Notes: a model not told the origin generated them from the sequence alone. Positions 7,968 through 21,679 are shown, counted from the first letter of the stretch. The stretch: DNA of 64,000 nt from an archaeon (GCA_018657525.1 JABHWZ010000009.1:2855-66854), one strand, 5' to 3'. Translations and numbers: made by a program.

Positions 7968-8261
7968 TTAAAGTGTTTCTCCAGTTAATTTAGTTCCCAA
8001 TAATTCTTCTAAAATTGATTCTCCTTCTTTAAAATGTTCTGGTGAACCATAAGCAATAACTGGAAAAGTGTCATTTCGTATTATTGCCATTAATCCCGGG
8101 GCAATATAGTGGGGTTGAGGGGAGTATTCTCCTATATGAAGATAAGGATGTTTAATTTTTCCTTCTTTTTCCATTCTTTCTCTTCTTTGATAAAATTCTT
8201 TATCCCAAATAGATTGTTTATCAAACTCTTCTGGTGCCGAGTATCTTCTTGTTTCTATCAT
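7968..8261 (-). CDS. hypothetical protein
   Basis: ATG-initiated ORF packed between rps3ae and rpl44e; no recognised motif. Confidence 0.5.
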   Translation of the reverse strand: MIETRRYSAPEEFDKQSIWDKEFYQRRERMEKEGKIKHPYLHIGEYSPQPHYIAPGLMAIIRNDTFPVIAYGSPEHFKEGESILEELLGTKLTGETL

Positions 8262-8771: not shown

Positions 8772-9047
8772 ATGGCAAGGATAAAATTTAGAAAAGGACA
8801 GCAGAGAAAGTTTTTACAAAAAGTTTTGAATAATGTTAATTCTCCTTCTTTAAGAGAGCTGGCTAACCGGATGGAAATTAATTATTCTAGTTTGAAAAAT
8901 TATTATTCTGAGTTAAGACTTTTACCAGATGATATATTCAAAAATTTATGTTTTTTAGGAAAGATTAGTTTTCAGGAATTAAATTTTGAAAGGGTTGAAG
9001 AAAGTTGGGGGCAGATTATGGGTGGAAAGAAATCAAAAAAGGGTTGA
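8772..9047 (+). CDS. small putative helix-turn-helix protein
   Basis: Start moved to ATG 8772 because the track's 5' part lies in repeat C1; SLRELANRMEINYSSLKNYYS looks like an HTH. Confidence 0.5.
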   Translation: MARIKFRKGQQRKFLQKVLNNVNSPSLRELANRMEINYSSLKNYYSELRLLPDDIFKNLCFLGKISFQELNFERVEESWGQIMGGKKSKKG

Positions 9048-9060
9048 TTGTTTTATTGTT

Positions 9061-9094
9061 AGTAAGTTAGTTAGATAGTAAGTAAGTTAGTAAG
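9061..9094. promoter_or_regulatory. direct repeats agtaagttagt(t/a)ag spaced 20 bp apart, upstream of an A/T box
   Basis: agtaagttag at 9061-9070 and 9081-9090, followed by catttaaaaac; lies between the HTH gene and the large-protein operon. Confidence 0.35.
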
Positions 9095-9141
9095 AAACAT
9101 TTAAAAACAAACTTTTCTTAATGATTTTTAGGAAAAAGAGA

Positions 9142-9288
9142 ATGAAAAAATATTTGCTTTTGGTTGAAAACGAAAAACTTTGGGAAAAGTTTAAATTAAG
9201 TATAAAAAAAGATATCAATAGTGAAATTTTAGATTTGATAAGAAAAAAAGTTGGAGATAATATTTCTCGGGGGCAAAAGAATGAATAA
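9142..9288 (+). CDS. small protein (48 aa), first gene of the large-protein operon
   Basis: MKKYLLLVENEKLWEKFKLSIKK...; its stop overlaps ATG 9281; below the track cutoff. Confidence 0.35.
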   Translation: MKKYLLLVENEKLWEKFKLSIKKDINSEILDLIRKKVGDNISRGQKNE

Positions 9289-11146
9289 AAGGGCAATGAA
9301 TTCACGAGGACAAATTGCTATCTTTGTAATAATTGGAATTTTGATTGTGGGGGGAGCAATTGCTTATTTTGTTTTAAGAGATTCTGTAGCGGGAGTGCAA
9401 GTGCCTGCAAATTTAGAACCAGTTTATTCTAATTTTTTAAATTGTTTGGAAGAAGATGTACTTGTTGGAATTGATATTCTGGAATCTCAGGGAGGCTATA
9501 TTACAATTCCAGACTTTGAACCAGGTTCGAATTATATGCCCTTTTCATCTCAATTGAATTTTTTAGGGAATGCAATTCCTTACTGGTATTATCTTTCTGG
9601 AAACAATATCCAACGGGAACAAGTGCCTAAAAAATCAGAAATGGAGTCTGCTCTCGAAGATTATCTGGAAAATAAAATACAAAATTGTGTTTATGATAAT
9701 CATTATCAAGATGGGTTTGAAATTATTCAAGGCAGTCCTAATGCTGAAATTAAAATTGAAAGAGAAAAGGTTTTTGTTAGTTTAGATATGGATTTAAGTA
9801 TTTCTAGATCGGAAGATAGCATTGTTGTTTCAAAGCATGATATTGAAGTGAAGTCTCAGATGGGAAAACTTTATGAGTCTGCATTGAAAATTTATAAACA
9901 AGAACAAGAAACTTTGTTTTTAGAAAATTACGCAGTGGATACTTTGAGATTGTATGCCCCTGTCGACGGTGTTGAGTTAACTTGTGCCCCGAAAATTTGG
10001 AATGCTGAAGAAGTCTTTGATGATTTGAAAGATGCAATAGAAGTTAATACTTTATCTTTGAGAAATAAAAATAATGATTTTATTTTGAGTGATAGTGCCA
10101 ATAAATATTTTGTTTTGGATTTGGGAGTTGATGAAAGTGTAAGATTTATTACTTCAAAAAATTGGCCAAGTGCTTTTGAGGTGGCACCTTCAGAGGGACC
10201 TGTTTTGAGGGCAAATCCAGTGGGGAATCAACCTGGCATGGGGATTATTGGATTTTGTTATGTTAAACATCACTTTGTTTATGGAGTTAAATATCCTGTT
10301 TTGATTCAGGTCTATTCGGAAGATGCTACTGAAATTTTTCAGTTTCCGATGGCAGTTGTAATTCAGGGGAATATCCCAAGGGAACCACTTAATATTAATC
10401 TTGCTGATGAAATTCCAAAAGAGTTTTGTAAAGATAAAAATAGCTTGATGCAAGTAAGTCTTTATGATTCTAATTTGAATTCTGTCGAGGGGAAGGTTGC
10501 TTATTCTTGCCTTGGAGAGGTGTGTGATATTGGGGCGACTTCTAATGGAGTCTTGGAGGATTATTTCCCACAGTGTGTGAATGGTTTTTTAATTGTGGAA
10601 GCAGAAGGTTTTGCAGATTCACATACAATGGTTTCTAGCGTGGATAGTTCTAGTGTTGATGTGATCCTTGATCGATTGTATGAAAGAGAAGTTGAGTTAA
10701 AACTTGATTCAAAAGTTTATGCCGAGCAAGCAATTGTTAGTTTTGTTTCAGATAAAGTTTCTGCTACAATTATTTATCCAGAACAGAAAAGCGTAGAACT
10801 TGTCGAGGGGCAGTATAATATTAGTGTTTCTGTATATCGAGAATCAGAGTTGAAAATTTCGGCAACAACTTCTCAACAGTGTTATGAGGTGCCTCGTTCG
10901 GGGTTGGGTGGATTGGTTGGTTTGACAGAGGAAGAATGTGTTGATTTGGAAATCCCGGAACAGATTTTATCAAATGCTTTGGCTGGAGGAGGTGTGCAGG
11001 CACATTATATTTTAGAAGGAGATTTACAAGCAAATGAAATAATTGAAATTAATGCAAAAAGTTTACCAACACCGAAGAGTCTGGAGGAATTGCAAGATAA
11101 TTATATTTTGTATGAAGAACAAAACTTGAGGATAAATTTTAAATGA
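9281..11146 (+). CDS. large exported hypothetical protein with N-terminal RGQ-hydrophobic anchor (class III signal-peptide-like)
   Basis: MNKRAMNSRGQIAIFVIIGILIVGGAIAYFVL; no recognised domain in the remaining ~590 aa; paired cysteines. Confidence 0.75.
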   Translation: MNKRAMNSRGQIAIFVIIGILIVGGAIAYFVLRDSVAGVQVPANLEPVYSNFLNCLEEDVLVGIDILESQGGYITIPDFEPGSNYMPFSSQLNFLGNAIPYWYYLSGNNIQREQVPKKSEMESALEDYLENKIQNCVYDNHYQDGFEIIQGSPNAEIKIEREKVFVSLDMDLSISRSEDSIVVSKHDIEVKSQMGKLYESALKIYKQEQETLFLENYAVDTLRLYAPVDGVELTCAPKIWNAEEVFDDLKDAIEVNTLSLRNKNNDFILSDSANKYFVLDLGVDESVRFITSKNWPSAFEVAPSEGPVLRANPVGNQPGMGIIGFCYVKHHFVYGVKYPVLIQVYSEDATEIFQFPMAVVIQGNIPREPLNINLADEIPKEFCKDKNSLMQVSLYDSNLNSVEGKVAYSCLGEVCDIGATSNGVLEDYFPQCVNGFLIVEAEGFADSHTMVSSVDSSSVDVILDRLYEREVELKLDSKVYAEQAIVSFVSDKVSATIIYPEQKSVELVEGQYNISVSVYRESELKISATTSQQCYEVPRSGLGGLVGLTEEECVDLEIPEQILSNALAGGGVQAHYILEGDLQANEIIEINAKSLPTPKSLEELQDNYILYEEQNLRINFK

Positions 11147-11180
11147 TAAATAAAATTCAATTAAATAAAAGGAGTAAAAA

Positions 11181-11282
11181 ATGAAAAAACAAACAAAAAA
11201 AGTGTTGGATTCTGTGTTGTGGATATTGGGAATTCTTGCAATACTAATGCTGTTGTATGGAATCTTTAAGACATTTATATAA
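11181..11282 (+). CDS. small membrane protein (33 aa)
   Basis: ggag RBS 9 nt upstream; single TM VLWILGILAILMLLYGIF. Confidence 0.35.
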   Translation: MKKQTKKVLDSVLWILGILAILMLLYGIFKTFI

Positions 11283-11283
11283 A

Positions 11284-11454
11284 ATGGATAATGAAGTATT
11301 GAACTGGATTGGAAATGCGCTAAATTTTTTAATTTTAGTTTATCTTATCCGTACGAATATTATTTTGGGTAGTTTTAATTTCGAGCAAAGCTTAATTGCT
11401 ACTTTTGGATTGTTTGTTGCAGTTTTGATTCAACTTTATAATATAAAAAAATGA
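11284..11454 (+). CDS. small membrane protein (56 aa)
   Basis: Two hydrophobic segments; ATGA overlap with the 1998-aa gene. Confidence 0.4.
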   Translation: MDNEVLNWIGNALNFLILVYLIRTNIILGSFNFEQSLIATFGLFVAVLIQLYNIKK

Positions 11455-14400
11455 TAAATAAAAGAATTTTGTTGGTTGGAATGTTTTTGATATTTGGGAT
11501 ATTTTTATTTGGCGGGGTTAATGCAGCTTATTCAAGTGCGACTCCACAAATTAGTTCTTTTGGGGGAGGGTCTTCTTCATATTTGGCAAAACAAGGAATT
11601 AATTTATTCCCGACAGGGATTGGTGAAAATGGTCAGTGTGGTGCGGGGCAGGATTTTGTTTTACAGATTCATCCGTTAGGATGTAGCCCGAGTTTGGTGA
11701 CTTCTGATTTATTGGAGGAACAGAATGTTCCTGTTTTTTGTCCGATTGTTGCAACGCAAATAAATCCTTTAATTAAAATTAATGCAATTGATTCTATGAT
11801 TTTTTCTGGAACTTATCCTCCAGAGATTTCTGGAATTGGTTTTCATCCGGCTAATGCGGCTGTGTCTGGGCCGGGCAATGATTTGTTGAATTATCCTGTT
11901 TTAGAAAATGTCGGTTATGCAGTAATTGTTTTGAATAGAAATGAGAATGAATCTTCGATGCCGGATTATGTAGAAGGGAATTTGACTGCTAAGATTAGAT
12001 ATGATATTGAAAACGCATTTGGCTTTGGGGATTTTAGAACTTCTATTCCGATAATGAGTGATGTTGAATGGGATGCAAGATATAATGAATTTAATTTTTG
12101 GCAAGGGAAAGGGTTTGTGCGAGTTATGGATATTGATGGGGAAAAGGCAAGTGTTGCGGTGTATGAAGATAAAGATAGAAGGATAGCTAATTTTGATTTA
12201 AAGGTCGGAGAGAGTTCTAGGAAGATTTATCTTGGAGGAAGCTACTGCCTCGCTGGTCTGCAGGTAAAGTTGGAAAATTTGGAGAATCCAGATACAAAGG
12301 TTCGGTTAAAGGTGGATGAAGATTATTTTGAGGTGGGAGTGGGTGAGAAGTTTTTAGAGAATCGATGTACTGTTAATAATATTCAGAAAACAGGTTTATC
12401 AAAGTCAACACAAATTACTTGTAAAGATGACGATAGTTCAAGAAAAGTTTTAAATTTTGAGATTAATCCACAGATAAGTTTGAAGGTTGGAGATAAAGAG
12501 AAGAATTATGTTTTAGGAGATAATTTTAAAATTGGAGAACAAACTTATTATATAACTTATTTGGATTTGGCTGGAAAGTCTACAAATGAAAATTTAATTG
12601 TTTGGATTGCTAGTTTAGATGAGGCTGATACTAAAAAATATGTTAATAATGGAAAATTGAATTCAAGAGGAATTGATGTTTTTTATGAGAATGTTATTTC
12701 AAAACAGGAGGAAGATTTTACTAAGGGGAAAGTGTCAAATAAGAATGTTTGGAAATTAGTTTATGGAAGTAATAATTATGCTAATGTTAATGTCGATGTT
12801 AAAGGATTTGCTAAGTTAGGGGGAACAGGAGAGGAAGGAGTAAATAATGCATGTTCTGATGCTCAAGATTGGTGTCCTCATTTTTTGAATGCTGTTAATC
12901 TTTATAGTGAGGAGTCTGTAAATATTATTAAAGAGGGAAAGGAAGTTAAATATTCTGAACCCGGACTTTTATTTTATAAAAATATTGGGCAGGTTGATAA
13001 ATATAGCTCTCAAATTTCTGGGTTAGAAACTTATACTGAGAAAGGAATTAAAGAGGGGATTGAGTTAGCGATGAAAGTGGAGGATTATGCGAGGAGAGAT
13101 AATTTGATTAGAATTCTTTTAGATAATTTTAATACTAAGGCTAATCAGTTGTATGTTGAAAATAAAATTAATAATTATTATTTGAGTAATTCTGCTGGGC
13201 TTCGAGTAAGCGAGAGTATTTATATTTCGGGCCAGCATAGGGATATAGAATTTGTAGATATTTATCAACCGGGTTTTGAAGATTATGGTGTGGAATTGCA
13301 AATTAGTGGAACCGGAGATAAGATTCGTTTGAGTAAGAATTCTCCGAGTTATTTGTTTAAAGGAAAGATTATTGAATTAGTCGAGTTAAAGGAAAATGAA
13401 GTTAAGCTTAGCACCAATATTGAATCTACTGAACAGAATTCAAGAAATATAATTATTTTGAAACAAGGTGAGGTGAAATCTTTTGTTTTAGAAGAAGGTG
13501 AGATAGAAAATAAATATTCCCTTAAAATAAATAAAATTAATTTAAACAAAGTTGCGAAGGTTAGTGTTTTAGCGAATATTGATAGGACTGGAACTGATGC
13601 AAATATAAGTTTTAAAATTGGAATTGAAAAGCGGGCGATTGATTTGAGTCCGGAGAGAATTGAAAAAATGATTGATAGTTTAAATGAGAGTTTAGTTAAA
13701 TGGGAAGAGAGGTCAGAAAAATTAGGAAACGTCGTCGATGGTTTACAAAAAGCGTGTATTGTAACTGCAGGAGTTTTGACGGTTAAGAATTTATTTTTGC
13801 AGGCAGGAGGGCAGGTAAAAGCAAGAAAGCAAACTATGGAAGATATTAGAGTCTTTTGTAAAAAGACTGATAAATATAAGGGAGATATTCAAGATTGTAT
13901 AAATCAGAAAGGAGAATTGATTGATCAATTACAGAAGACAAACGAAAAGATTGTAAAAGAGCAGGATGCTCGAAGTAAAGAGATAAAGGAAAATTTAGAG
14001 AAAAAGAAATTAGAAGAAGGGCAGAATTATGACACTGAATTTAAGAAAGAATATATTGAAGTAAAAGGATATCAAAAGGAATTGGATGGGCAGTTTGTTT
14101 CAATTGATGAAATGATGGAATATGATTCTTGTAAACAGAGGTTGGTGAAAGATTCTTATTCTACGGGGGTTCTGAAAGAAAAATGTGAGGATGTTGTGAA
14201 GAAGTATGAAACGCAGGTGAGCGAAGCCAAGGCCGTAGAGAATGCAAGATTAGAACGAGAGGGAGAGATTGGGCTAGTAGTTAGCGGAGTTCCAAGTGTT
14301 TTGGCCTTTGCTCCTAAAAATGCTCATTCAGGGATTTGGTCTGGTCAAACTACTGAGGGGAGCAAGATTTCTAATGAATTTTCAGGGGAAAAAAATGTTC

Positions 14401-17400
14401 AGTTTGTTACTCTTTCTGGGGAAGATTATGTTTTAGTTTTAGCAGATAATCCGGATGCAAAAGGAAGGTATTCAGTTACTGATGCTTATAAGTATCAGGG
14501 ACTTAGTGGAGGTTCATTTAAGGGATGGGAAAAAAGTGACACTTTGAAATCTAAATTTATTTTTACAAAAGCAGGTCAGTATAAAACTCCAATTAATAAT
14601 CCTCAAGTGAGATATTTTGGTGCGGCGCCTGATAAAGATTTTCCTGCGATTGTTCCTTTTCCTTATCCTTCTCGGGAGAATAATGGTTATTATGTTGGGG
14701 TAAGGCATAAAACTGTGACTGGGCAATATGCTAAGTCTGGAGAGGCAAAGAGTTATTATGTTTGTAATGCAATGGATGGGGAAATTGATTTTAATCCAGA
14801 GAATCAACAGTTTATGGGGGGAGATAAGTGTATTGGAGTGAATCTTGTTGGAACTAATTTAGTGACTTCGCAAAAGGCGTTTGGTTTATCTGAAGCACAG
14901 ACGAAAGATGTAGTTAGTGCGGCATCGAGGGCAATTAATGAGGCGCAGAGAAAAGTTGGTTCTTCAGCTAAAGGGAGTATTTTGGGGATGGATGTGAATT
15001 TTGGCGACGCTGTATTTAGTACTCCACAAATGCAATGTCAGGATTTTATGTCTCCAACTGATTGTGCTTGGTTATTTAATTTATGTGACCCAGTAATTTG
15101 TCCTGCTTCAAGATGTGATTTTGGAGGTGCAATGCCTGTGGCTGACCCTATTCAGTCTGGGATAATTGGAAGTTTGATTTTATGCTTGCCAAATTTTAAA
15201 ATTGATCCAATGAAAGGTGTTTTGATGCCTGTTTGTTTGACTGGTTTGAAAGCAGGGATGGATGGTTATATTTCAGTTGTTAAGAGTCACAGAGATTGTT
15301 TGATTGAGAAAAAAGAGACTGGGAAAACTGTTGGAATTTGTGATGAGGTTTATAGTTATAATTTGTGTCAGTTATTTTGGCAACAGGTTGCTCCGTTAAA
15401 GGATTTGTTAATTCCTAAGCTTTTGCAATTGTTAACTGGAGGAGGTTTGGGAAGAGGGGGAGGAGAGTATACTAATGCTGCTGCTGCTTGGCAGAATGCG
15501 AGAGATTCTTTGAGTTTTTTTACTCAAAATTATGCTACTACTGCTTATCAAACTTTTAAAGTTCAAGCGGTTGATGAATTACAAAATGAAGTTTGTAAAA
15601 ATTCTATTTCGTCAGTTATCCCTGAGATAGGAGTTTTGAATTCTATGGTTGAGCCGAGTTCGCCGCCTCAATTCCACGCTAAATTTGATGAGGTTTTGTT
15701 TACAGATGCTACTGTGCCACCAATTTCAAAATATAAGGTGTTCTACCATGTATTTGCTGGAAAGAGCTCTGGAGTAAGTTATCAGGTCTATTTGAAGGCA
15801 TCTAGCGAGGGGATTTCACTTTACAAGATTAATCCAACTTATGTTGTGAATAGTGGGTTTATTCCTTTGGGAGAGAGTGCGACTGAGACAAAAGATTTTA
15901 CTGCGCCGACAGGATATGTTGAATTGTGTGTTCGGGTTAATAACCAAGAAGAGTGCGGATTTAAACAGGTGACGACTTCGTTGGCTTTGGATTATCTTAA
16001 TGATCAATTTGTGCAAAATGAAGTAGAGAATACTGAGATTAAAACAGAGGTAGAGTGTATTTCAGGAGGGAATAATATTTACAGCTTTGTGAGTCCGAAT
16101 TTGCAAGGGGGGGCAACTGAATTTGCTAATCCAGATATTTCTCAGCGAGGGATAACCCGTGTTTGTTCAAGTGGAGTTCCGGATGGATTGGTGGAAGAAA
16201 TGAGCAAGTGGGTGAGAGTGGGATATTGTGATGATACAAATTTGGGATGTTGGATTGATAAAGACAGCGTCGAGAATGCAATTACTTTTGCTGGGGCAGA
16301 AGAAGAAACACTTTCAAAATTAAGTTCTGAAACCTTAAATAGATTAGCGGGAGGAAGTATGAATATTGAGGCATATAATAATAATGTGGAGAAAGTTAAA
16401 TTAAATATTGCAGAGATTGAGAAAAGTGGTGATAGAACAAAGGAAACACAAACTGTTAGATTAATTGAACAAACAGCTTTGGTTTCAACTTATTTTACTC
16501 AAGTTCCATTTGATTGGCAGAAGGCAGAGCTGACTTATTTGAAGGCGAGGATTTATGATGTTTTGACAAGGTTAGTTTATAATAAAGAGAGTGGGGAGAG
16601 TCAGGGGGTTGCTCCTTTAACTGATAAAGAGAAAGAATTGATTAATGCTGCAAAAGAGGACAATATTGATAAGGTTCGTTCATTAATTGAGGATGGAGCA
16701 AATGTTAATGCTAAAGATAATGAGGGATTTACTGCATTATTCTATGCTTTAGAACTGAATTATTTTGATATTGTTAATTCATTAATTGATAATGGAGCAG
16801 ATGTTAATACTAATGGGAAAGGGGGAGTGACCCCATTAATCTACGCCTCTTTTTATGGCTATGAAGATTTTGTTAATTCATTAATTGAAAAAGGAGTAGA
16901 TAATTTCAATGCTCAGACTGATGTAGGGATGACTGCCCTAATTCATGCATCACGACAGGGTTATGAGAATATTGCGCAATTATTGATTGAAAAAGGGGCA
17001 GATGTTAATGTTAAAGATGATAAGGGAAATACTGCTTTAATGTATGCTAAGGATGGAGGTTATGAGAATATTGTGCAATTATTGATTGATAATGGGGCAG
17101 AGAGCTCTACTGAAGGTGAAGGGGATCTAGTTGAAGTGACTAGTCCAAAATTGGATAAGGAGAAGACAGGGTTTTATGATGGAGATATTAAAATTCGTTC
17201 AGTAGATTATGGAAAAACAGTAATTTTTAAAATCGTTACTTCTGGGTCTAATTGTGATAAAATTTCATATGACTTTTACAAAAGAGGAATTTTATCAAAT
17301 AATAAATTAAAGCCTTTGAATGAACAATCCTTTTCTTTTAAGAATCTTGTTGTTGGAAATTATTATGTTGATAATATTGTTTGTAAGGTTGGGGGCAAAA

Positions 17401-17447
17401 TCAGGGAAGATTTTGATCCTAAGATATTTGATTTAACTGTGAAATGA
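11451..17447 (+). CDS. giant secreted protein (1998 aa): Sec signal peptide, coiled-coil segment, Cys-rich hydrophobic core, about five ankyrin repeats, C-terminal beta-rich domain
   Basis: MINKRILLVGMFLIFGIFLFGGVNA-AYSS; ankyrin consensus (G.TALxxAxxxGxxxIVxxLIxxGADVN) at aa ~1730-1883; uninterrupted 6-kb ORF. Confidence 0.85.
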   Translation: MINKRILLVGMFLIFGIFLFGGVNAAYSSATPQISSFGGGSSSYLAKQGINLFPTGIGENGQCGAGQDFVLQIHPLGCSPSLVTSDLLEEQNVPVFCPIVATQINPLIKINAIDSMIFSGTYPPEISGIGFHPANAAVSGPGNDLLNYPVLENVGYAVIVLNRNENESSMPDYVEGNLTAKIRYDIENAFGFGDFRTSIPIMSDVEWDARYNEFNFWQGKGFVRVMDIDGEKASVAVYEDKDRRIANFDLKVGESSRKIYLGGSYCLAGLQVKLENLENPDTKVRLKVDEDYFEVGVGEKFLENRCTVNNIQKTGLSKSTQITCKDDDSSRKVLNFEINPQISLKVGDKEKNYVLGDNFKIGEQTYYITYLDLAGKSTNENLIVWIASLDEADTKKYVNNGKLNSRGIDVFYENVISKQEEDFTKGKVSNKNVWKLVYGSNNYANVNVDVKGFAKLGGTGEEGVNNACSDAQDWCPHFLNAVNLYSEESVNIIKEGKEVKYSEPGLLFYKNIGQVDKYSSQISGLETYTEKGIKEGIELAMKVEDYARRDNLIRILLDNFNTKANQLYVENKINNYYLSNSAGLRVSESIYISGQHRDIEFVDIYQPGFEDYGVELQISGTGDKIRLSKNSPSYLFKGKIIELVELKENEVKLSTNIESTEQNSRNIIILKQGEVKSFVLEEGEIENKYSLKINKINLNKVAKVSVLANIDRTGTDANISFKIGIEKRAIDLSPERIEKMIDSLNESLVKWEERSEKLGNVVDGLQKACIVTAGVLTVKNLFLQAGGQVKARKQTMEDIRVFCKKTDKYKGDIQDCINQKGELIDQLQKTNEKIVKEQDARSKEIKENLEKKKLEEGQNYDTEFKKEYIEVKGYQKELDGQFVSIDEMMEYDSCKQRLVKDSYSTGVLKEKCEDVVKKYETQVSEAKAVENARLEREGEIGLVVSGVPSVLAFAPKNAHSGIWSGQTTEGSKISNEFSGEKNVQFVTLSGEDYVLVLADNPDAKGRYSVTDAYKYQGLSGGSFKGWEKSDTLKSKFIFTKAGQYKTPINNPQVRYFGAAPDKDFPAIVPFPYPSRENNGYYVGVRHKTVTGQYAKSGEAKSYYVCNAMDGEIDFNPENQQFMGGDKCIGVNLVGTNLVTSQKAFGLSEAQTKDVVSAASRAINEAQRKVGSSAKGSILGMDVNFGDAVFSTPQMQCQDFMSPTDCAWLFNLCDPVICPASRCDFGGAMPVADPIQSGIIGSLILCLPNFKIDPMKGVLMPVCLTGLKAGMDGYISVVKSHRDCLIEKKETGKTVGICDEVYSYNLCQLFWQQVAPLKDLLIPKLLQLLTGGGLGRGGGEYTNAAAAWQNARDSLSFFTQNYATTAYQTFKVQAVDELQNEVCKNSISSVIPEIGVLNSMVEPSSPPQFHAKFDEVLFTDATVPPISKYKVFYHVFAGKSSGVSYQVYLKASSEGISLYKINPTYVVNSGFIPLGESATETKDFTAPTGYVELCVRVNNQEECGFKQVTTSLALDYLNDQFVQNEVENTEIKTEVECISGGNNIYSFVSPNLQGGATEFANPDISQRGITRVCSSGVPDGLVEEMSKWVRVGYCDDTNLGCWIDKDSVENAITFAGAEEETLSKLSSETLNRLAGGSMNIEAYNNNVEKVKLNIAEIEKSGDRTKETQTVRLIEQTALVSTYFTQVPFDWQKAELTYLKARIYDVLTRLVYNKESGESQGVAPLTDKEKELINAAKEDNIDKVRSLIEDGANVNAKDNEGFTALFYALELNYFDIVNSLIDNGADVNTNGKGGVTPLIYASFYGYEDFVNSLIEKGVDNFNAQTDVGMTALIHASRQGYENIAQLLIEKGADVNVKDDKGNTALMYAKDGGYENIVQLLIDNGAESSTEGEGDLVEVTSPKLDKEKTGFYDGDIKIRSVDYGKTVIFKIVTSGSNCDKISYDFYKRGILSNNKLKPLNEQSFSFKNLVVGNYYVDNIVCKVGGKIREDFDPKIFDLTVK

Positions 17448-17707
17448 TTTATTTTGTTTTGTTAATGTTCAGAGTTTTTTGAGGAAATATTTCGTTTTTT
17501 TATTTGTGGCTCTAAAAAAAATAAGATAAATATAAAAAGGTCTTTTTCTTGAAATAATTTATGGCTATAGCTAATAGAATTTTGCTGAATAGAATTCTTT
17601 TAGTCGTGGCCTTAATTAAATAGTCTAAAAGCTGTTCGATTTCTGCTTTTGGATGATTTTTTATTCTAAACAGATTTCTATGCTTAAGACTGCAACAGGA
17701 GGTTAAA

Positions 17708-17971
17708 ATGGATTATAAAACAGAAGAATGGTCTGACTATGAGGCAGATTGGTGGGGATTTGAAAAAGAATCATCTTTGTCAGTTGGAAAACAATCCTCT
17801 CAAGAACCTTTTGCTAACCCAAAAGATTCTGCTGACAAATATTTGGTTATTTTAGAAACAGCACTAGGTATTTCTCTAGAGAATAGACAAATTATACAAA
17901 TGATAATGGACAATCCCAAGATGAGTTTTGATATGAAAAATGTTAAGATTCATAGAAGGATTTTTGGGTAA
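17708..17971 (+). CDS. hypothetical protein
   Basis: aggagg RBS, ATG start, followed by a hairpin terminator. Confidence 0.45.
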   Translation: MDYKTEEWSDYEADWWGFEKESSLSVGKQSSQEPFANPKDSADKYLVILETALGISLENRQIIQMIMDNPKMSFDMKNVKIHRRIFG

Positions 17972-17991: not shown

Positions 17992-18019
17992 GGGGCGAAA
18001 GCCCCTTTTTCTTTTTTTT
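17992..18019 (+). terminator. hairpin GGGGC-GAAA-GCCCC followed by a T-run
   Basis: Read directly at 17992-18005, with a T-rich tract to 18019. Confidence 0.6.
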
Positions 18020-18067
18020 AAAAGTTTTTTAAGCTGAGTTATACTACTTTTTTCATGCGGGTATGCC
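18020..18067 (+). repeat. copy 1 of the tRNA-Leu promoter plus tRNA positions 1-11
   Basis: aaaagttttttaagctgagttatactacttttttcatgcgggtatgcc is identical at 18020, 18244 and 18395. Confidence 0.9.
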
Positions 18068-18243
18068 TCCGAGCTTGCAATCTCAATTTGTAATATTTAG
18101 ATACTTTTTTGGTTGTTCTATTTTAGAATTCAAAATCCTCCTTCCATCCCCCTCCCTCCCGCCCGGAGGAAAAGTAATTATTGAATTCTAAAATTATTAA
18201 TTGGTTTAAATAAAGTCAAACTTGTTCTCCCACCCCTCAATTC

Positions 18244-18291
18244 AAAAGTTTTTTAAGCTGAGTTATACTACTTTTTTCATGCGGGTATGCC
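18244..18291 (+). repeat. copy 2 of the tRNA-Leu promoter plus tRNA positions 1-11
   Basis: Same 48-mer as 18020-18067 and 18395-18442. Confidence 0.9.
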
Positions 18292-18365
18292 TCCGAGCTC
18301 CCAACCCTGATTTTTTCCCATTACCCCTTTTTTATTTGAATAAACCCAAAATCAAAGTTGCTCGG
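18292..18365 (+). repeat. family B module, tRNA-Leu locus
   Basis: tccgagctcccaaccctgattttttcccattaccccttttttatttgaataaacccaaaatcaaagttgctcgg is about 88 percent identical to 22626-22697. Confidence 0.85.
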
Positions 18366-18394
18366 GTCAAACTTGTTCTCCCACCCCTCAATTC

Positions 18395-18431
18395 AAAAGT
18401 TTTTTAAGCTGAGTTATACTACTTTTTTCAT
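18395..18431 (+). promoter_or_regulatory. tRNA-Leu promoter (BRE/TATA-like aaaagttttttaagc about 27-37 nt upstream of the tRNA 5' end)
   Basis: A/T box at the canonical archaeal distance; a similar aaaagtt box lies upstream of tRNA-Cys. Confidence 0.5.
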
Positions 18432-18514
18432 GCGGGTATGCCGGAGTGGTCAAACGGGTCAGGTTTAGGACCTGATAGCTTATGCTTACTTAGGTTCGAA
18501 TCCTAATACCCGCA
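18432..18514 (+). tRNA. tRNA-Leu (anticodon TAG), long variable arm
   Basis: GCGGGTA acceptor, anticodon loop TTTAGGA, 15-nt variable arm, T-arm TTAGG-TTCGAAT-CCTAA. Confidence 0.9.
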
Positions 18515-18595
18515 TTTATTGAGATTCGAAGCCTCGGGTTTCGTTGAAGAATTGTGAAGCAATTGCTTTGGCGAGCGAGGATTTACATCCGACGC
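18515..18595 (+). repeat. family A module, tRNA-Leu locus (variant central segment)
   Basis: gattcgaagcctcgggtttcgtt...gagcgaggatttacatccgacgc shared with 21403-21604 (reverse strand) and 22832-22904. Confidence 0.85.
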
Positions 18596-18613
18596 CGAAT
18601 CCTAATATCCGCA
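18596..18613 (+). pseudogene. copy of tRNA-Leu positions 56-73
   Basis: cgaatcctaatatccgca versus cgaatcctaatacccgca at 18497-18514 (17/18); both are followed by tttatt. Confidence 0.9.
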
Positions 18614-21384: not shown

Positions 21385-21495
21385 TGGCCCGGACAGGATT
21401 CGGCGTCGGATGTAAATCCTCGTTCGTCCGCTATTGAATTTCTGAAGCGAACGAAACCCAAGGCTTCGAATTCAAAAATAATTTCTTAAAAATTA
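21385..21495 (-). repeat. tandem unit 1: tRNA-Arg positions 56-73, family A module, and a copy of the tRNA trailer
   Basis: tggcccggacaggattcg (18/18 with 21605-21622) followed by gcgtcggatgtaaatcctcg...; starts 3 nt after the rnz stop. Confidence 0.9.
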
Positions 21496-21604
21496 TGGCC
21501 CGGACAGGATTCGGCGTCGGATGTAAATCCTCGCTCGTCCGCTATTGAAATTCTGAAGCGAACGAAACCCAAGGCTTCGAATCCAAATAATTTCTTAAAA
21601 ATTA
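21496..21604 (-). repeat. tandem unit 2: tRNA-Arg positions 56-73, family A module, and a copy of the tRNA trailer
   Basis: About 95 percent identical to unit 1; periods of 111 and 109 nt. Confidence 0.9.
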
Positions 21605-21679
21605 TGGCCCGGACAGGATTCGAACCTGCGACTTTCAGCTTAGAAGGCTGACACTCTATCCAGGCTGAGTTACCGAGCC
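21605..21679 (-). tRNA. tRNA-Arg (anticodon TCT)
   Basis: Reverse complement GGCTCGG acceptor, anticodon loop CTTCTAA, T-arm GCAGG-TTCGAAT-CCTGT. Confidence 0.9.

What the first reader, a model, noticed from the sequence alone, without database searches (positions are those of the whole stretch)
9142..17447. Operon encoding a 631-aa and a 1998-aa secreted protein of unknown fold plus three tiny proteins
Five ORFs are linked by overlapping or near-abutting stops and starts: 9142-9288, 9281-11146, 11181-11282, 11284-11454 and 11451-17447. The 631-aa protein starts with RGQ followed by a hydrophobic helix, which is prepilin-like. The 1998-aa protein has a standard signal peptide (VNA-AY) and a coiled-coil stretch near aa 740-900. 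It also has a dense Cys-rich hydrophobic core near aa 1180-1330 (for example CDPVICPASRCDFGG, LILCLPNF, VCLTGLKAG), ankyrin repeats and a beta-rich end. It has no C-terminal anchor.

Together these take about 13 percent of the window in an otherwise minimal, housekeeping-dominated genome. An HTH gene and 20-bp-spaced direct repeats (9061-9094) sit just upstream.

Inference: this is a candidate host-attachment or host-manipulation apparatus of an episymbiotic archaeon.
Basis: inference. Interest (0 to 1): 0.6.

Follow-up and report, generated by a model that had tools for sequence, protein, structure and literature searches.

The report
Pilin-anchored giant surface protein operon
A tiny DPANN archaeon carries a widely conserved operon that pairs a pilin-type membrane protein with a 2,000-residue secreted protein of unknown fold. 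The giant's exchangeable end is an ankyrin domain here and often a bacterial-wall-cutting enzyme in relatives, so the operon probably builds a surface device for engaging other cells; this is not proven.

Summary
The five ORFs are real and the genome is archaeal (828 kb, Pacearchaeota type). The conserved core has three genes: a 48-aa cytoplasmic protein, a 621-aa protein with a class III (prepilin-type) signal, and a 1998-aa Sec-secreted giant. In 83 of 83 related loci the last two are adjacent, usually with a 4-nt overlap. The 621-aa family occurs in 371 of 401 sampled genomes of the class.

The two tiny membrane proteins between them are a lineage-specific insert, seen in about 9 loci.

The giant has a conserved body (aa 1-1650, at least 25 invariant Cys) and a tail unrelated even to that of its closest homologues. 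The tail is ankyrin here; about a third of relatives carry a peptidoglycan hydrolase instead. This family was already noted in the literature (Castelle 2021, fam00969) without its partner gene, regulator or tail exchange.

Neither protein matches a known fold beyond generic beta-sandwiches. Both avoid N-glycosylation sites, whereas other giant proteins of this genome are enriched in them. That argues against a classical S-layer glycoprotein.

The direct repeats upstream belong to a locus-specific heptamer array conserved in 30 of 31 relatives.

Best reading: a pilin-anchored host-contact scaffold (confidence 0.5). Expression data could not be obtained.

The parts
8772..9047 (+).
   Evidence: No Pfam or NCBIfam hit. 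tblastn finds a homologue in only 15 of 83 related loci, sometimes on the other strand.
9050..9094 (+). Array of TTAGTAA/TTACTAA-type heptamers (two 20-nt direct repeats); candidate operator
   Evidence: Repeats found. The 13-mer TTAGTAAGTTAGT occurs only here in the 828-kb genome. The same heptamers sit just upstream of the promoter in 30 of 31 related loci, at 2.2 per 100 nt against 0.041 background.
9092..9107 (+). BRE/TATA-like promoter element AAGAAACATTTAAAAA
   Evidence: GAAACATTTATATA-type element lies mostly 35-69 nt before the small ORF's ATG in 30 of 31 related loci. The same consensus recurs at other genes of this genome, so it is the general promoter type.
9142..9288 (+). 48-aa soluble, highly conserved protein (MKKYLLLVENEKLWEKFK...); possible ribbon-helix-helix regulator
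   Evidence: Family A6 has 29 sequences with 73% mean column identity and was detected in 43 of 83 loci. It overlaps the start of the next gene. There is no TM segment. RHH is inferred from the strand-helix-helix pattern only; no profile supports it.
9281..11146 (+). 621-aa class III (prepilin-type) signal protein. Leader aa 1-10 ends in Gly, Gln is at +1, hydrophobic helix aa 11-36. An alpha/beta N-domain (aa ~43-225) is shared with paralogues. Beta-sandwich domains span aa ~385-621. Ten conserved Cys.
   Evidence: Alignments. AlphaFold2 pLDDT 92.9. Foldseek gives only weak beta-sandwich matches at TM 0.10-0.15. phmmer finds 2,429 representative homologues. Present in 371 of 401 genomes of the class.
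11181..11282 (+). 33-aa single-TM peptide; lineage-specific insert
   Evidence: One hydrophobic helix. tblastn homologues at the same position in 6 loci. The PF18895 hit (E 0.002, 18.5 bits) is below the 26.6-bit cut-off.
11284..11454 (+). 56-aa two-TM peptide; lineage-specific insert
   Evidence: HMM hits at E 2e-30 to 3e-9 at the same position in 9 loci, the window included. Absent from most loci, where the two big genes overlap by 4 nt.
11451..11525 (+). Sec-type signal peptide of the giant (aa 1-25, ...VNA/AY)
   Evidence: Hydropathy. All 67 homologous N-termini extracted from related loci show the same kind of signal.
11598..12500 (+). Conserved N-terminal domain of the giant (aa 50-350, six invariant Cys); not modelled
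   Evidence: Conservation profile. Alignment A5. No PDB sequence relative.
13650..14270 (+). Long helical (coiled-coil-like) stretch, aa ~734-940
   Evidence: AlphaFold2 model of aa 691-1700 shows helices at model residues 44-250. The aa 800-1050 part is poorly conserved.
14598..16400 (+). Most conserved core of the giant (aa 1050-1650). It includes the Cys-rich hydrophobic helical segment at aa ~1195-1370 (NxCDPxxCPxSRC motif) and two beta domains.
   Evidence: 50-70% identity across 119 homologues. Invariant Cys listed. Model pLDDT 71. No Foldseek match at E<0.001 in PDB or BFVD. No stand-alone version exists outside the family.
16638..17120 (+). Ankyrin-repeat module of the variable tail (aa ~1730-1890)
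   Evidence: Pfam Ank_2 E 1.7e-41 and related models. Only this copy among the 57 tails scanned has ankyrin.
17121..17447 (+). Unique last 108 residues and stop codon
   Evidence: jackhmmer finds no counterpart in 119 homologues. The whole tail (aa 1700-1998) gives 0 of 119 blastp hits, against 119 of 119 for the body.
17448..17510 (+). T-rich stretch; likely end of the transcript
   Evidence: Several runs of 4-7 T directly after the stop codon. That archaeal termination occurs at oligo-T tracts is established knowledge; it was not tested here.

Best explanation
The locus is a vertically inherited operon of the class that contains Pacearchaeota and Woesearchaeota. It most likely builds a cell-surface complex.

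**Shown**
- The 621-aa protein has a class III (type IV pilin-like) signal.
- The genome encodes the matching prepilin peptidase, a type IV filament ATPase and a platform protein.
- The giant has a Sec signal, no anchor, a disulfide-type pattern of invariant Cys, a conserved 1650-aa body and a tail that differs between genomes.
- The two genes are adjacent everywhere and usually translationally coupled.

**Inferred**
- After cleavage, the 621-aa protein stays in the membrane or enters a short pilus-like fibre through its N-terminal helix.
- Its family-specific C-terminal part holds the otherwise anchorless giant.
- The giant's helical stretch and Cys-rich core act as a spacer or scaffold that presents the C-terminal tail to a neighbouring cell.
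- In this organism the tail is an ankyrin protein-binding module. In about a third of relatives it is a murein hydrolase that would cut a bacterial wall locally.
- The small 48-aa protein is inferred to bind the conserved heptamer array in front of the promoter and so control the operon.
- The two tiny membrane peptides are lineage-specific accessories of unknown role.
For: **Gene pairing.** The pair is adjacent in 83 of 83 related loci. Most of the complete loci show a 4-nt overlap. The pairing holds in 28%-identical marine homologues whose flanking genes differ.

**Distribution.** The 621-aa family is in 371 of 401 genomes and 262 of 281 genera of the class. It sits at a fixed core-genome site between S3Ae/L44e and TFIIB/S8e.

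**Pilin-type signal.** The leader ends in Gly and is followed by a conserved +1 Gln. Methanococcus pilins show the same pattern (PMC3875500).

**Assembly machinery in this genome.** Peptidase_A24, two T2SSE ATPases and T2SSF are all present.

**Paralogues.** Three paralogues of the N-terminal module each lie next to other Sec-secreted proteins. Two of them sit in a pilin-rich cluster.

**Body and tail of the giant.**
- Body versus tail conservation is shown.
- 39 of 119 homologues carry SLT, amidase, VanY or glucosaminidase domains.
- These domains lie in the tails.

**N-glycosylation sites.**
- The giant has 4 sequons against 16.8 +/- 3.8 expected.
- The 621-aa protein has 1 against 4.0.
- The depletion is family-wide: 35 against 90 and 90 against 250.
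- AglB is present.
- Other giant proteins of this genome are 2.2- to 3.8-fold enriched.

**Regulatory elements.** The operator-like array is locus-specific and conserved. The small protein has 73% column identity.
Against: - There is no direct evidence of expression, localisation, signal cleavage, binding between the two proteins, or any host.
- Neither protein resembles a solved pilin or adhesin beyond generic beta-sandwiches at TM 0.10-0.15.
- The giant's core matches nothing, so the 'scaffold' role is an architectural guess.
- No type IV filament genes lie next to the operon.
- This copy has no wall hydrolase.
- About two thirds of homologous tails have no recognised domain.
- Near-universal single-copy presence would also fit a housekeeping envelope role.
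- The RHH assignment has no profile support.
Confidence: 0.5

Rival explanations
1. The pair is the main structural envelope of these archaea. It would be a two-component S-layer with a membrane-bound stalk (621 aa) and an outer canopy (the giant), analogous to SlaB and SlaA of Sulfolobales. The variable tail would be surface decoration.
For: - The pair is near-universal and single-copy at a fixed core-genome site.
- The two genes are co-transcribed, one product anchored and one not.
- The promoter is close to the genome's consensus.
- Foldseek lists SlaB (8qox_B) among the matches of the 621-aa model, at E 8e-4.
Against: - The SlaB match is weak (TM 0.14/0.18) and sits among many generic beta-sandwich hits.
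- Both proteins are about 4-fold depleted in N-glycosylation sequons although AglB is present. Other giant secreted proteins of the genome are 2-4-fold enriched and are better S-layer or glycocalyx candidates.
- A high, invariant Cys content, a helical hydrophobic core, a dedicated operator and enzyme tails are unusual for S-layer proteins (established knowledge, not tested here).
Confidence: 0.15
2. The giant is a released polymorphic exo-effector, a bacteriolysin or binding toxin in the manner of colicins and other polymorphic toxins. It would serve competition or nutrient scavenging. The pilin-like partner would act only in its export or release.
For: - The giant combines a conserved body with an unrelated C-terminal module.
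- The tails cover all main murein bond types: SLT, glucosaminidase, Amidase_2/3, M23 and M15/VanY.
- The giant has no anchor of its own.
- An archaeon without murein needs no immunity gene.
Against: - A 1650-aa conserved body is very large for a carrier.
- Strict coupling to a membrane-helix protein suggests tethering.
- Ankyrin or LRR tails, and the many tails without an enzyme, do not fit a lysin.
- No known pre-toxin or translocation domain was found.
Confidence: 0.15
3. The Cys-rich hydrophobic helical core is a membrane-active element. The complex would then be a penetration or fusion device that opens a channel or cytoplasmic bridge into the partner cell after the tail has breached or bound its envelope.
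For: - The best-conserved part of the giant (aa ~1195-1370) is hydrophobic, Gly-rich, helical in the model and stapled by invariant Cys.
- It is preceded by a long helical stretch.
- Avoidance of glycosylation would suit a surface that must refold or insert.
Against: - No segment reaches a transmembrane hydropathy threshold.
- The model is of low confidence in this region.
- No structural similarity to any viral or cellular fusogen was found in PDB or BFVD.
- The hydrophobicity may simply be a buried core.
Confidence: 0.08
4. The block is a type IV secretion or conjugation-like system, with tiny VirB2-like pilins and a VirB6/hydrolase-like giant.
For: - The 33-aa peptide gives a weak hit to PF18895 T4SS_pilin (E 0.002).
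- Murein hydrolases are T4SS components in bacteria (established knowledge).
Against: - The hit is below the Pfam cut-off and covers only a TM helix.
- The tiny genes are missing from most loci.
- The genome has no VirB4-family ATPase.
- The giant has no membrane-spanning segments.
- The locus is a fixed core-genome site, not a mobile element.
Confidence: 0.02

Closest known systems
[quoted passage not shown] 2021, PMC8204110)
   Same: The giant's body is homologous along its length to SLT-bearing members of about 1,800-3,300 aa from the same lineages. These proteins are extracellular and lineage-restricted. They have been proposed to mediate attachment to bacterial walls.
   Different: - This copy has no SLT domain. 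It has ankyrin repeats plus a unique 108-aa end.
- The paper defines the family by the SLT domain. In the passages I read, it does not describe the conserved body, the obligatory pilin-signal partner, the small upstream protein and operator, or the exchange of tails.
Archaeal class III signal (type IV pilin-like) proteins: EppA-dependent pilins of Methanococcus maripaludis, and non-pilus substrates such as the Sulfolobus sugar-binding proteins
   Same: The 621-aa protein has a short basic leader ending in Gly, a +1 Gln and a hydrophobic helix of about 25 residues. The genome encodes an A24 peptidase, an ATPase and a platform protein.
   Different: - At 621 aa it is far larger than structural pilins.
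- It has no +5 Glu.
- Its head has a new alpha/beta domain plus beta-sandwiches, with no pilin match in PDB.
- Assembly into a filament is unproven.
Minor-pilin/PilY1-type tip adhesin complexes of bacterial type IV pili, and the PilY-like adhesin of archaeal T4F subsystem 4A (PMC13705601)
   Same: A large Sec-exported non-pilin protein is encoded next to pilin-like proteins and is thought to be held by them at the surface (for the archaeal case).
   Different: There is no sequence or fold similarity to PilY1. The operon lies apart from the filament genes. The resemblance is functional analogy only.
SlaA/SlaB two-component S-layer of Sulfolobales (PDB 8qox)
   Same: Two adjacent genes encode one membrane-anchored stalk with beta-sandwich domains and one large anchorless partner. 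There is a weak Foldseek hit to SlaB.
   Different: - The anchor is an N-terminal pilin-type helix, not a C-terminal TM.
- Both proteins avoid N-glycosylation sites.
- They are Cys-rich, the giant has a variable enzyme or binding tail, and no homology is detectable.
Polymorphic toxin and effector proteins (colicins, CdiA, Rhs)
   Same: A conserved N-terminal body is joined to an unrelated, exchangeable C-terminal functional module.
   Different: - No shared domains and no immunity gene.
- Most recognised tails are murein hydrolases or binding repeats, not cytotoxic enzymes.
- The locus is core-genomic and single-copy.

Membership tests
fam00969 giant extracellular proteins of Pace-/Woesearchaeota | Full-length homology to the large (about 2,000-3,000 aa) proteins of these lineages | tested here: met
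   598 homologues at E<=0.001. The best 119 have bit scores of 948-1956, and many cover 95-100% of aa 1-1700. All 119 hit the body by blastp.
fam00969 giant extracellular proteins of Pace-/Woesearchaeota | Murein-like lytic transglycosylase (SLT) domain | tested here: not met
   Pfam finds only ankyrin families in this copy. SLT is present in 35 of 119 homologues and in 9 of 57 tails. The SLT domain is therefore a variable module, not a constant of the homologous family.
fam00969 giant extracellular proteins of Pace-/Woesearchaeota | Exported (signal peptide) and from a Pace-/Woesearchaeota-type genome | tested here: met
   Signal peptide. Named homologues and loci are labelled Pacearchaeota, Woesearchaeota or Nanoarchaeota.
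Archaeal class III signal peptide (type IV pilin-like) proteins | Short charged leader ending in Gly/Ala, followed by a hydrophobic helix of about 20 residues | tested here: met
   MNKRAMNSRG/QIAIFVIIGILIVGGAIAYFVL. The pattern is conserved in 131 homologues, with Gln11 nearly invariant. The model has a helix at aa 9-36.
Archaeal class III signal peptide (type IV pilin-like) proteins | +5 Glu, as in bacterial and Methanococcus pilins | tested here: not met
   Position +5 is Phe, conserved as F15. The feature is also absent from Sulfolobus and Haloferax pilins (PMC3875500), so it is not universal.
Archaeal class III signal peptide (type IV pilin-like) proteins | Cognate prepilin peptidase, ATPase and platform protein in the genome | tested here: met
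   Peptidase_A24 at C7:11061-11384. T2SSE at C10:4563-5231 and C7:26506-27090. T2SSF at C10:2053-3140.
Archaeal class III signal peptide (type IV pilin-like) proteins | Cleavage by the peptidase and assembly into a filament or surface structure | not testable with these tools
   Needs biochemistry or imaging.
SlaA/SlaB-type archaeal S-layer | Sequence or fold homology to known S-layer proteins | tested here: inconclusive
   Only a weak SlaB hit (E 8e-4, TM 0.14/0.18) among generic beta-sandwich matches. Profile searches of PDB sequences found nothing.
SlaA/SlaB-type archaeal S-layer | Heavily N-glycosylated surface glycoprotein | tested here: not met
   Sequons number 4 against 16.8 expected in the giant and 1 against 4.0 in the 621-aa protein. 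The depletion is family-wide. AglB is present. Other giants of the genome are enriched 2.2- to 3.8-fold. This is indirect evidence because glycans were not measured.
Ankyrin repeat proteins | Tandem 33-residue ANK repeats above the Pfam threshold | tested here: met
   Ank_2 at 141 bits (cut-off 27.3), Ank at 94.7 bits and Ank_4 at 86 bits.
Ribbon-helix-helix (CopG/Arc/MetJ) regulators (48-aa protein) | Match to an RHH profile or solved RHH protein | tested here: not met
   No Pfam hit at E<=0.1. NCBIfam and the PDB profile search gave only chance-level matches. The strand-helix-helix pattern is seen by eye only.
Type IV secretion / conjugation systems | VirB4-family ATPase and VirB2-type pilin | tested here: not met
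   The genome has no PF03135 match. The PF18895 hit of the 33-aa peptide is below the cut-off.
Polymorphic toxin systems | Conserved body with unrelated exchangeable C-terminal modules | tested here: met
   Identity falls from 40-70% in the core to about 5-10% after aa 1700. The tail gives 0 of 119 hits. The tails carry at least 9 different kinds of Pfam domain.
Polymorphic toxin systems | Known pre-toxin/delivery domains and a downstream immunity gene | tested here: not met
   Pfam finds no Rhs, VENN, PT-TG or similar domain. The transcript appears to end directly after the giant.

The most novel reading that the evidence does not exclude
The pilin-signal partner and the giant form a lineage-defining 'contact organelle' of Pacearchaeota and Woesearchaeota. 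It would be a new kind of envelope-bridging device with three features:
- an unknown-fold, disulfide-stapled, partly hydrophobic core that acts on the partner cell's envelope;
- a tip that is swapped to match the partner (murein hydrolases for bacteria; ankyrin here, implying a protein receptor and perhaps a different kind of host);
- control by a dedicated small DNA-binding protein through a conserved operator.
Probability: 0.3. Interest if true: 0.8.

Novelty: new variant of a known kind. Interest (0 to 1): 0.55.

Why it matters
Pacearchaeota and Woesearchaeota are among the most widespread uncultured archaea. Whether they live on bacteria, on archaea or alone is unresolved.

This operon is present in more than 90% of sampled genomes of the class and takes about 1% of a minimal genome. 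Its exchangeable end is often an enzyme that acts only on bacterial walls. That makes it the most concrete molecular handle on the question.

- The tail type could predict the partner.
- The pair offers antigens for localisation.
- The conserved operator and small protein offer a testable regulatory switch.

The two large proteins are also well-populated families with no recognisable fold relatives. The depletion of glycosylation sites separates them from the other giant surface proteins of the same cell.

Tried and rejected
**Profile and fold searches**
- Pfam, PHROGs and NCBIfam gave nothing for the 621-aa protein, the giant's body or the tiny proteins beyond ankyrin.
- PDB sequence-profile searches with four alignments gave nothing. 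The few low-scoring hits of the 48-aa profile are chance matches to helical segments.
- Foldseek of the core model against PDB and BFVD gave no hit at E<0.001.
- Foldseek of the 621-aa model gave only generic beta-sandwich hits.

**Hypotheses tested**
- The T4SS idea was rejected: there is no VirB4 and the pilin hit is below the cut-off.
- The mobile element or prophage idea was rejected: synteny with ribosomal-protein and TFIIB genes is fixed.
- A search for a stand-alone version of the Cys-rich core outside the family found only fragments of the same family.
- A search for a conserved C-terminal sorting domain found none.
- Homology between the giant and the 1240-aa partner of a paralogous module was not detected.

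**Uninformative or unavailable**
- Codon-usage PCA as an expression proxy was uninformative, because the first axis tracks the coding strand.
- The sigma-70 promoter scan is not applicable to archaea.
The giant's aa 1-690, its tail and the 48-aa protein were not modelled.

**Coordinate error**
- Minus-strand coordinates printed were in reverse-complement numbering. The loci first fetched from them were wrong and were refetched.

Full report
**1. What is there**

The window is archaeal. The flanks encode Gins51, ribosomal proteins S3Ae and S8e, TFIIB and RNase Z. The assembly is 828 kb in 14 contigs and is estimated 84% complete. GC content is about 32%.

- **9142-9288:** 48 aa.
- **9281-11146:** 621 aa. 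The '631 aa' refers to an upstream TTG at 9251. The N-termini of homologues support the ATG at 9281.
- **11181-11282:** 33 aa.
- **11284-11454:** 56 aa.
- **11451-17447:** 1998 aa.

The gene ends overlap by 8 nt (9281/9288) and by 4 nt (11451/11454). Runs of T follow the last stop codon directly.

**2. The conserved unit has three genes, not five**

Homologues of the 621-aa protein were fetched from 80 species genomes, out of 387 positive stretches, and from other assemblies.
- In all 83 loci the 621-aa gene is directly followed by a homologue of the giant.
- In most loci where both genes are complete, they overlap by 4 nt.
- The neighbourhood is also conserved: S3Ae, a small protein that scores as L44e, then the operon, then TFIIB and S8e. 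This is a fixed core-genome site, not an island.
- In 28%-identical marine homologues the flanks differ, but a 616-aa gene is still followed by an ORF of more than 2,379 aa.

A profile of the 621-aa family finds a match in 371 of 401 genomes and 262 of 281 genera sampled from the phylum. All of these genomes lie in the same class. An exhaustive phmmer search finds 2,429 cluster representatives.

The two tiny TM peptides are real genes. They are conserved at the same position: the 56-aa type in 9 loci (the window included) at HMM E-values from 2e-30 to 3e-9, and the 33-aa type in 6 loci. They are nonetheless a lineage-specific insert.

A different two-TM protein of about 70 aa lies upstream of the small ORF in about 68 of 85 loci but is missing from this window. 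No profile supports that call, and a homologue is found in only 15 loci.

**3. The 621-aa protein**

Its N-terminus is MNKRAMNSRG/QIAIFVIIGILIVGG... The [KR]-[GAS]-Q motif and the hydrophobic helix are conserved across 131 homologues of 26-68% identity. All ten Cys are invariant or nearly so.

This is the pattern of archaeal class III signals. Methanococcus maripaludis pilins have a leader of 5-13 residues ending in Gly and a +1 Gln (PMC3875500). The +5 Glu is absent here, as it is in Sulfolobus and Haloferax pilins.

The genome encodes a Peptidase_A24, two T2SSE ATPases and an adjacent T2SSF platform. Several small pilin-sized proteins carry the same K[KR]GQ signal.

AlphaFold2 with a 131-sequence alignment gives a confident model (pLDDT 92.9).
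- A membrane helix spans aa 9-36, followed by a second helix at aa 43-69.
- An alpha/beta region extends to about aa 380.
- Beta-sandwich domains fill the rest, to aa 621.

Foldseek against PDB returns only weak matches at TM 0.10-0.15 to proteins built of repeated beta-sandwich domains. These include the B. anthracis TIE protein, Gram-positive pilins, usher proteins and SlaB. The N-terminal half therefore has no recognised relative.

Three paralogues of the first ~220 residues exist in the same genome (hmmsearch E 5.5e-33 to 1.2e-24; hhalign probability 99.1%). Each lies next to other Sec-secreted proteins. Two lie in a cluster with three tandem pilin-like genes. This suggests the N-terminal module has a common function, such as membrane or filament insertion, and that the family-specific remainder recognises the partner. 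This is inference.

**4. The giant**

It has a Sec-type signal peptide, as do all 67 homologous N-termini extracted from related loci. No other segment is hydrophobic enough to span a membrane.

Conservation across 119 homologues shows the following pattern.
- Conserved blocks lie at aa 50-350, 700-800 and 1050-1650, peaking at 70% identity at aa 1201-1250.
- Variable stretches lie between them.
- Past aa 1700 there is essentially no similarity.

At least 25 of the 34 Cys are invariant. They include the motif N-x-C-D-P-x-x-C-P-x-S-R-C.

The AlphaFold2 model of aa 691-1700 is of moderate quality (pLDDT 71.2).
- Long helices span aa ~734-940.
- A beta region follows.
- The Cys-rich hydrophobic part (aa ~1200-1370) is a helical bundle of lower confidence.
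- A beta-sandwich and a helical end complete the piece.

Foldseek finds nothing at E<0.001 in PDB or among viral models. The best hit is a fibronectin/ApaG-like sandwich of about 120 residues. Profile searches of PDB sequences are empty. A core-only profile finds only fragments of the same family.

**5. The tail**

In this copy the tail (aa 1700-1998) has about five ankyrin repeats (Ank_2 E 1.7e-41) and a unique 108-residue end. It hits none of 119 homologues, while the body hits all of them.
- Among those homologues, 35 carry SLT, 2 Amidase_3, 1 VanY and 1 glucosaminidase. Some also carry M23 or M10, and others DUF1615 or TPM.
- A Pfam scan of 57 excised tails confirms that these domains lie in the tail. 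It adds Amidase_2, M15_4 and LRR.
- About a third of the family thus ends in enzymes whose only known substrate is bacterial murein, which archaea do not make.

The giant's family is the one Castelle et al. 2021 called fam00969. They proposed it as an extracellular enzyme for attachment to bacterial walls (PMC8204110; see also PMC11537232). In the passages I read, they do not describe the partner gene, the conserved body or the tail exchange.

**6. Glycosylation-site avoidance**

- The giant has 4 N-x-S/T sequons where shuffling predicts 16.8 +/- 3.8 (0 of 2000 shuffles as low).
- The 621-aa protein has 1 against 4.0.
- Sampled homologues show 90 against 250 and 35 against 90.
- The genome-wide observed-to-expected ratio is 1.21.
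- Other giant ORFs are strongly enriched: 192 against 87, 101 against 45, 51 against 19 and 69 against 18. A secreted subtilase has 44 against 18.
- An AglB/STT3 gene is present.

The pair is therefore kept free of N-glycosylation sites, unlike the likely glycocalyx or S-layer proteins of the same cell. Together with the Cys content and the dedicated control region, this argues against a classical S-layer. It hints that bare protein surfaces matter for assembly or for contact.

**7. Control region**

In 30 of 31 related loci the start of the small ORF is preceded, mostly by 35-69 nt, by a GAAACATTTATATA-type BRE/TATA element. Directly upstream of it lie 2-5 TTACTAA/TTAGTAA-type heptamers. Their density is 2.2 per 100 nt against 0.041 elsewhere in the loci.

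The BRE/TATA element is the general promoter type of this genome. The 13-mer TTAGTAAGTTAGT, however, occurs only at this locus.

The 48-aa protein is more conserved than its large neighbours (73% mean column identity). It is soluble and shows a strand-helix-helix pattern. That it is a ribbon-helix-helix autoregulator binding this array is an attractive inference, but no profile supports it.

**8. Interpretation**

The best-supported reading is a pilin-anchored surface complex that presents an exchangeable tip to other cells (confidence 0.5). The rivals are:
- an S-layer-like envelope pair (0.15);
- a released polymorphic bacteriolysin or effector (0.15);
- a membrane-active penetration device (0.08);
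- a T4SS (0.02; no VirB4).

The remainder is unassigned.

Earlier notes of this scan on orthologous operons in other genomes reach the same general reading. They are not independent evidence. The points they raise that I tested are listed in the field for earlier findings.

This window adds five things:
- the ankyrin-tailed variant;
- the tiny-TM insert;
- the sequon contrast with other giants of the genome;
- the paralogous anchor modules;
- the quantified operator conservation.

Noticed in passing
own genome outside the window: C7:52431-63617 (3728 aa), an end-truncated 2263-aa ORF on C11, C11:48001-52125 (1374 aa), C11:60463-64335 (1290 aa), C10:191481-194165 (894-aa subtilase): Other giant or secreted proteins are 2.2- to 3.8-fold enriched in N-glycosylation sequons. 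They are better candidates for the glycosylated envelope than the pair studied here. The 1374-aa protein has a MopE-like metal-binding motif.
   Followed up: partly
own genome: C8:148457-161355 and C12:4023-7838: Three paralogues of the first ~220 residues of the 621-aa protein (261, 264 and 287 aa) each sit beside other Sec-secreted proteins (1240 aa, 392 aa). The C8 region also holds three tandem small pilin-like genes and a 685-aa class-III-like protein. The anchor-plus-cargo arrangement therefore appears to be modular.
   Followed up: partly
related loci, about 300-500 nt upstream of the 621-aa gene (e.g. L009:9517-9738): A conserved two-TM protein of about 65-72 aa precedes the small regulator-like gene in about 68 of 85 loci. 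It is absent from this window, where the 91-aa 'HTH' ORF takes its place.
   Followed up: partly
window 7968-8261 (minus strand): A 97-aa ORF lies between the S3Ae gene and the L44e-like gene. It has no tblastn counterpart in any of the 83 related loci and no family hit. In the two loci with gene calls those two genes are adjacent.
   Followed up: no
L083 (DATKUW010000047.1, labelled 'Bacillota bacterium'): This contig carries the whole archaeal block (S3Ae, the operon, TFIIB, S8e). It is most likely a mis-binned archaeal contig in a bacterial MAG.
   Followed up: no
Genome-search hits G291:C16:16716-18557, G329:C1:614494-616365, G390:C1:8293-10137: Three same-family genomes show a single in-frame TGA inside their otherwise full-length orthologue of the 621-aa gene. 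This could be a sequencing error, a pseudogene or recoding.
   Followed up: no
window 18020-18613, 21385-21679 and other tRNA loci: Earlier notes on this genome describe duplicated tRNA ends and hairpin cassettes next to all six tRNA genes. The tRNA-Leu array lies just downstream of this operon and is not part of it.
   Followed up: no
window 17708-17971: An 87-aa ORF after the operon's T-runs has no family hit and no counterpart in related loci. It is followed by a GC-rich hairpin and a T-run at 17992-18015.
   Followed up: no
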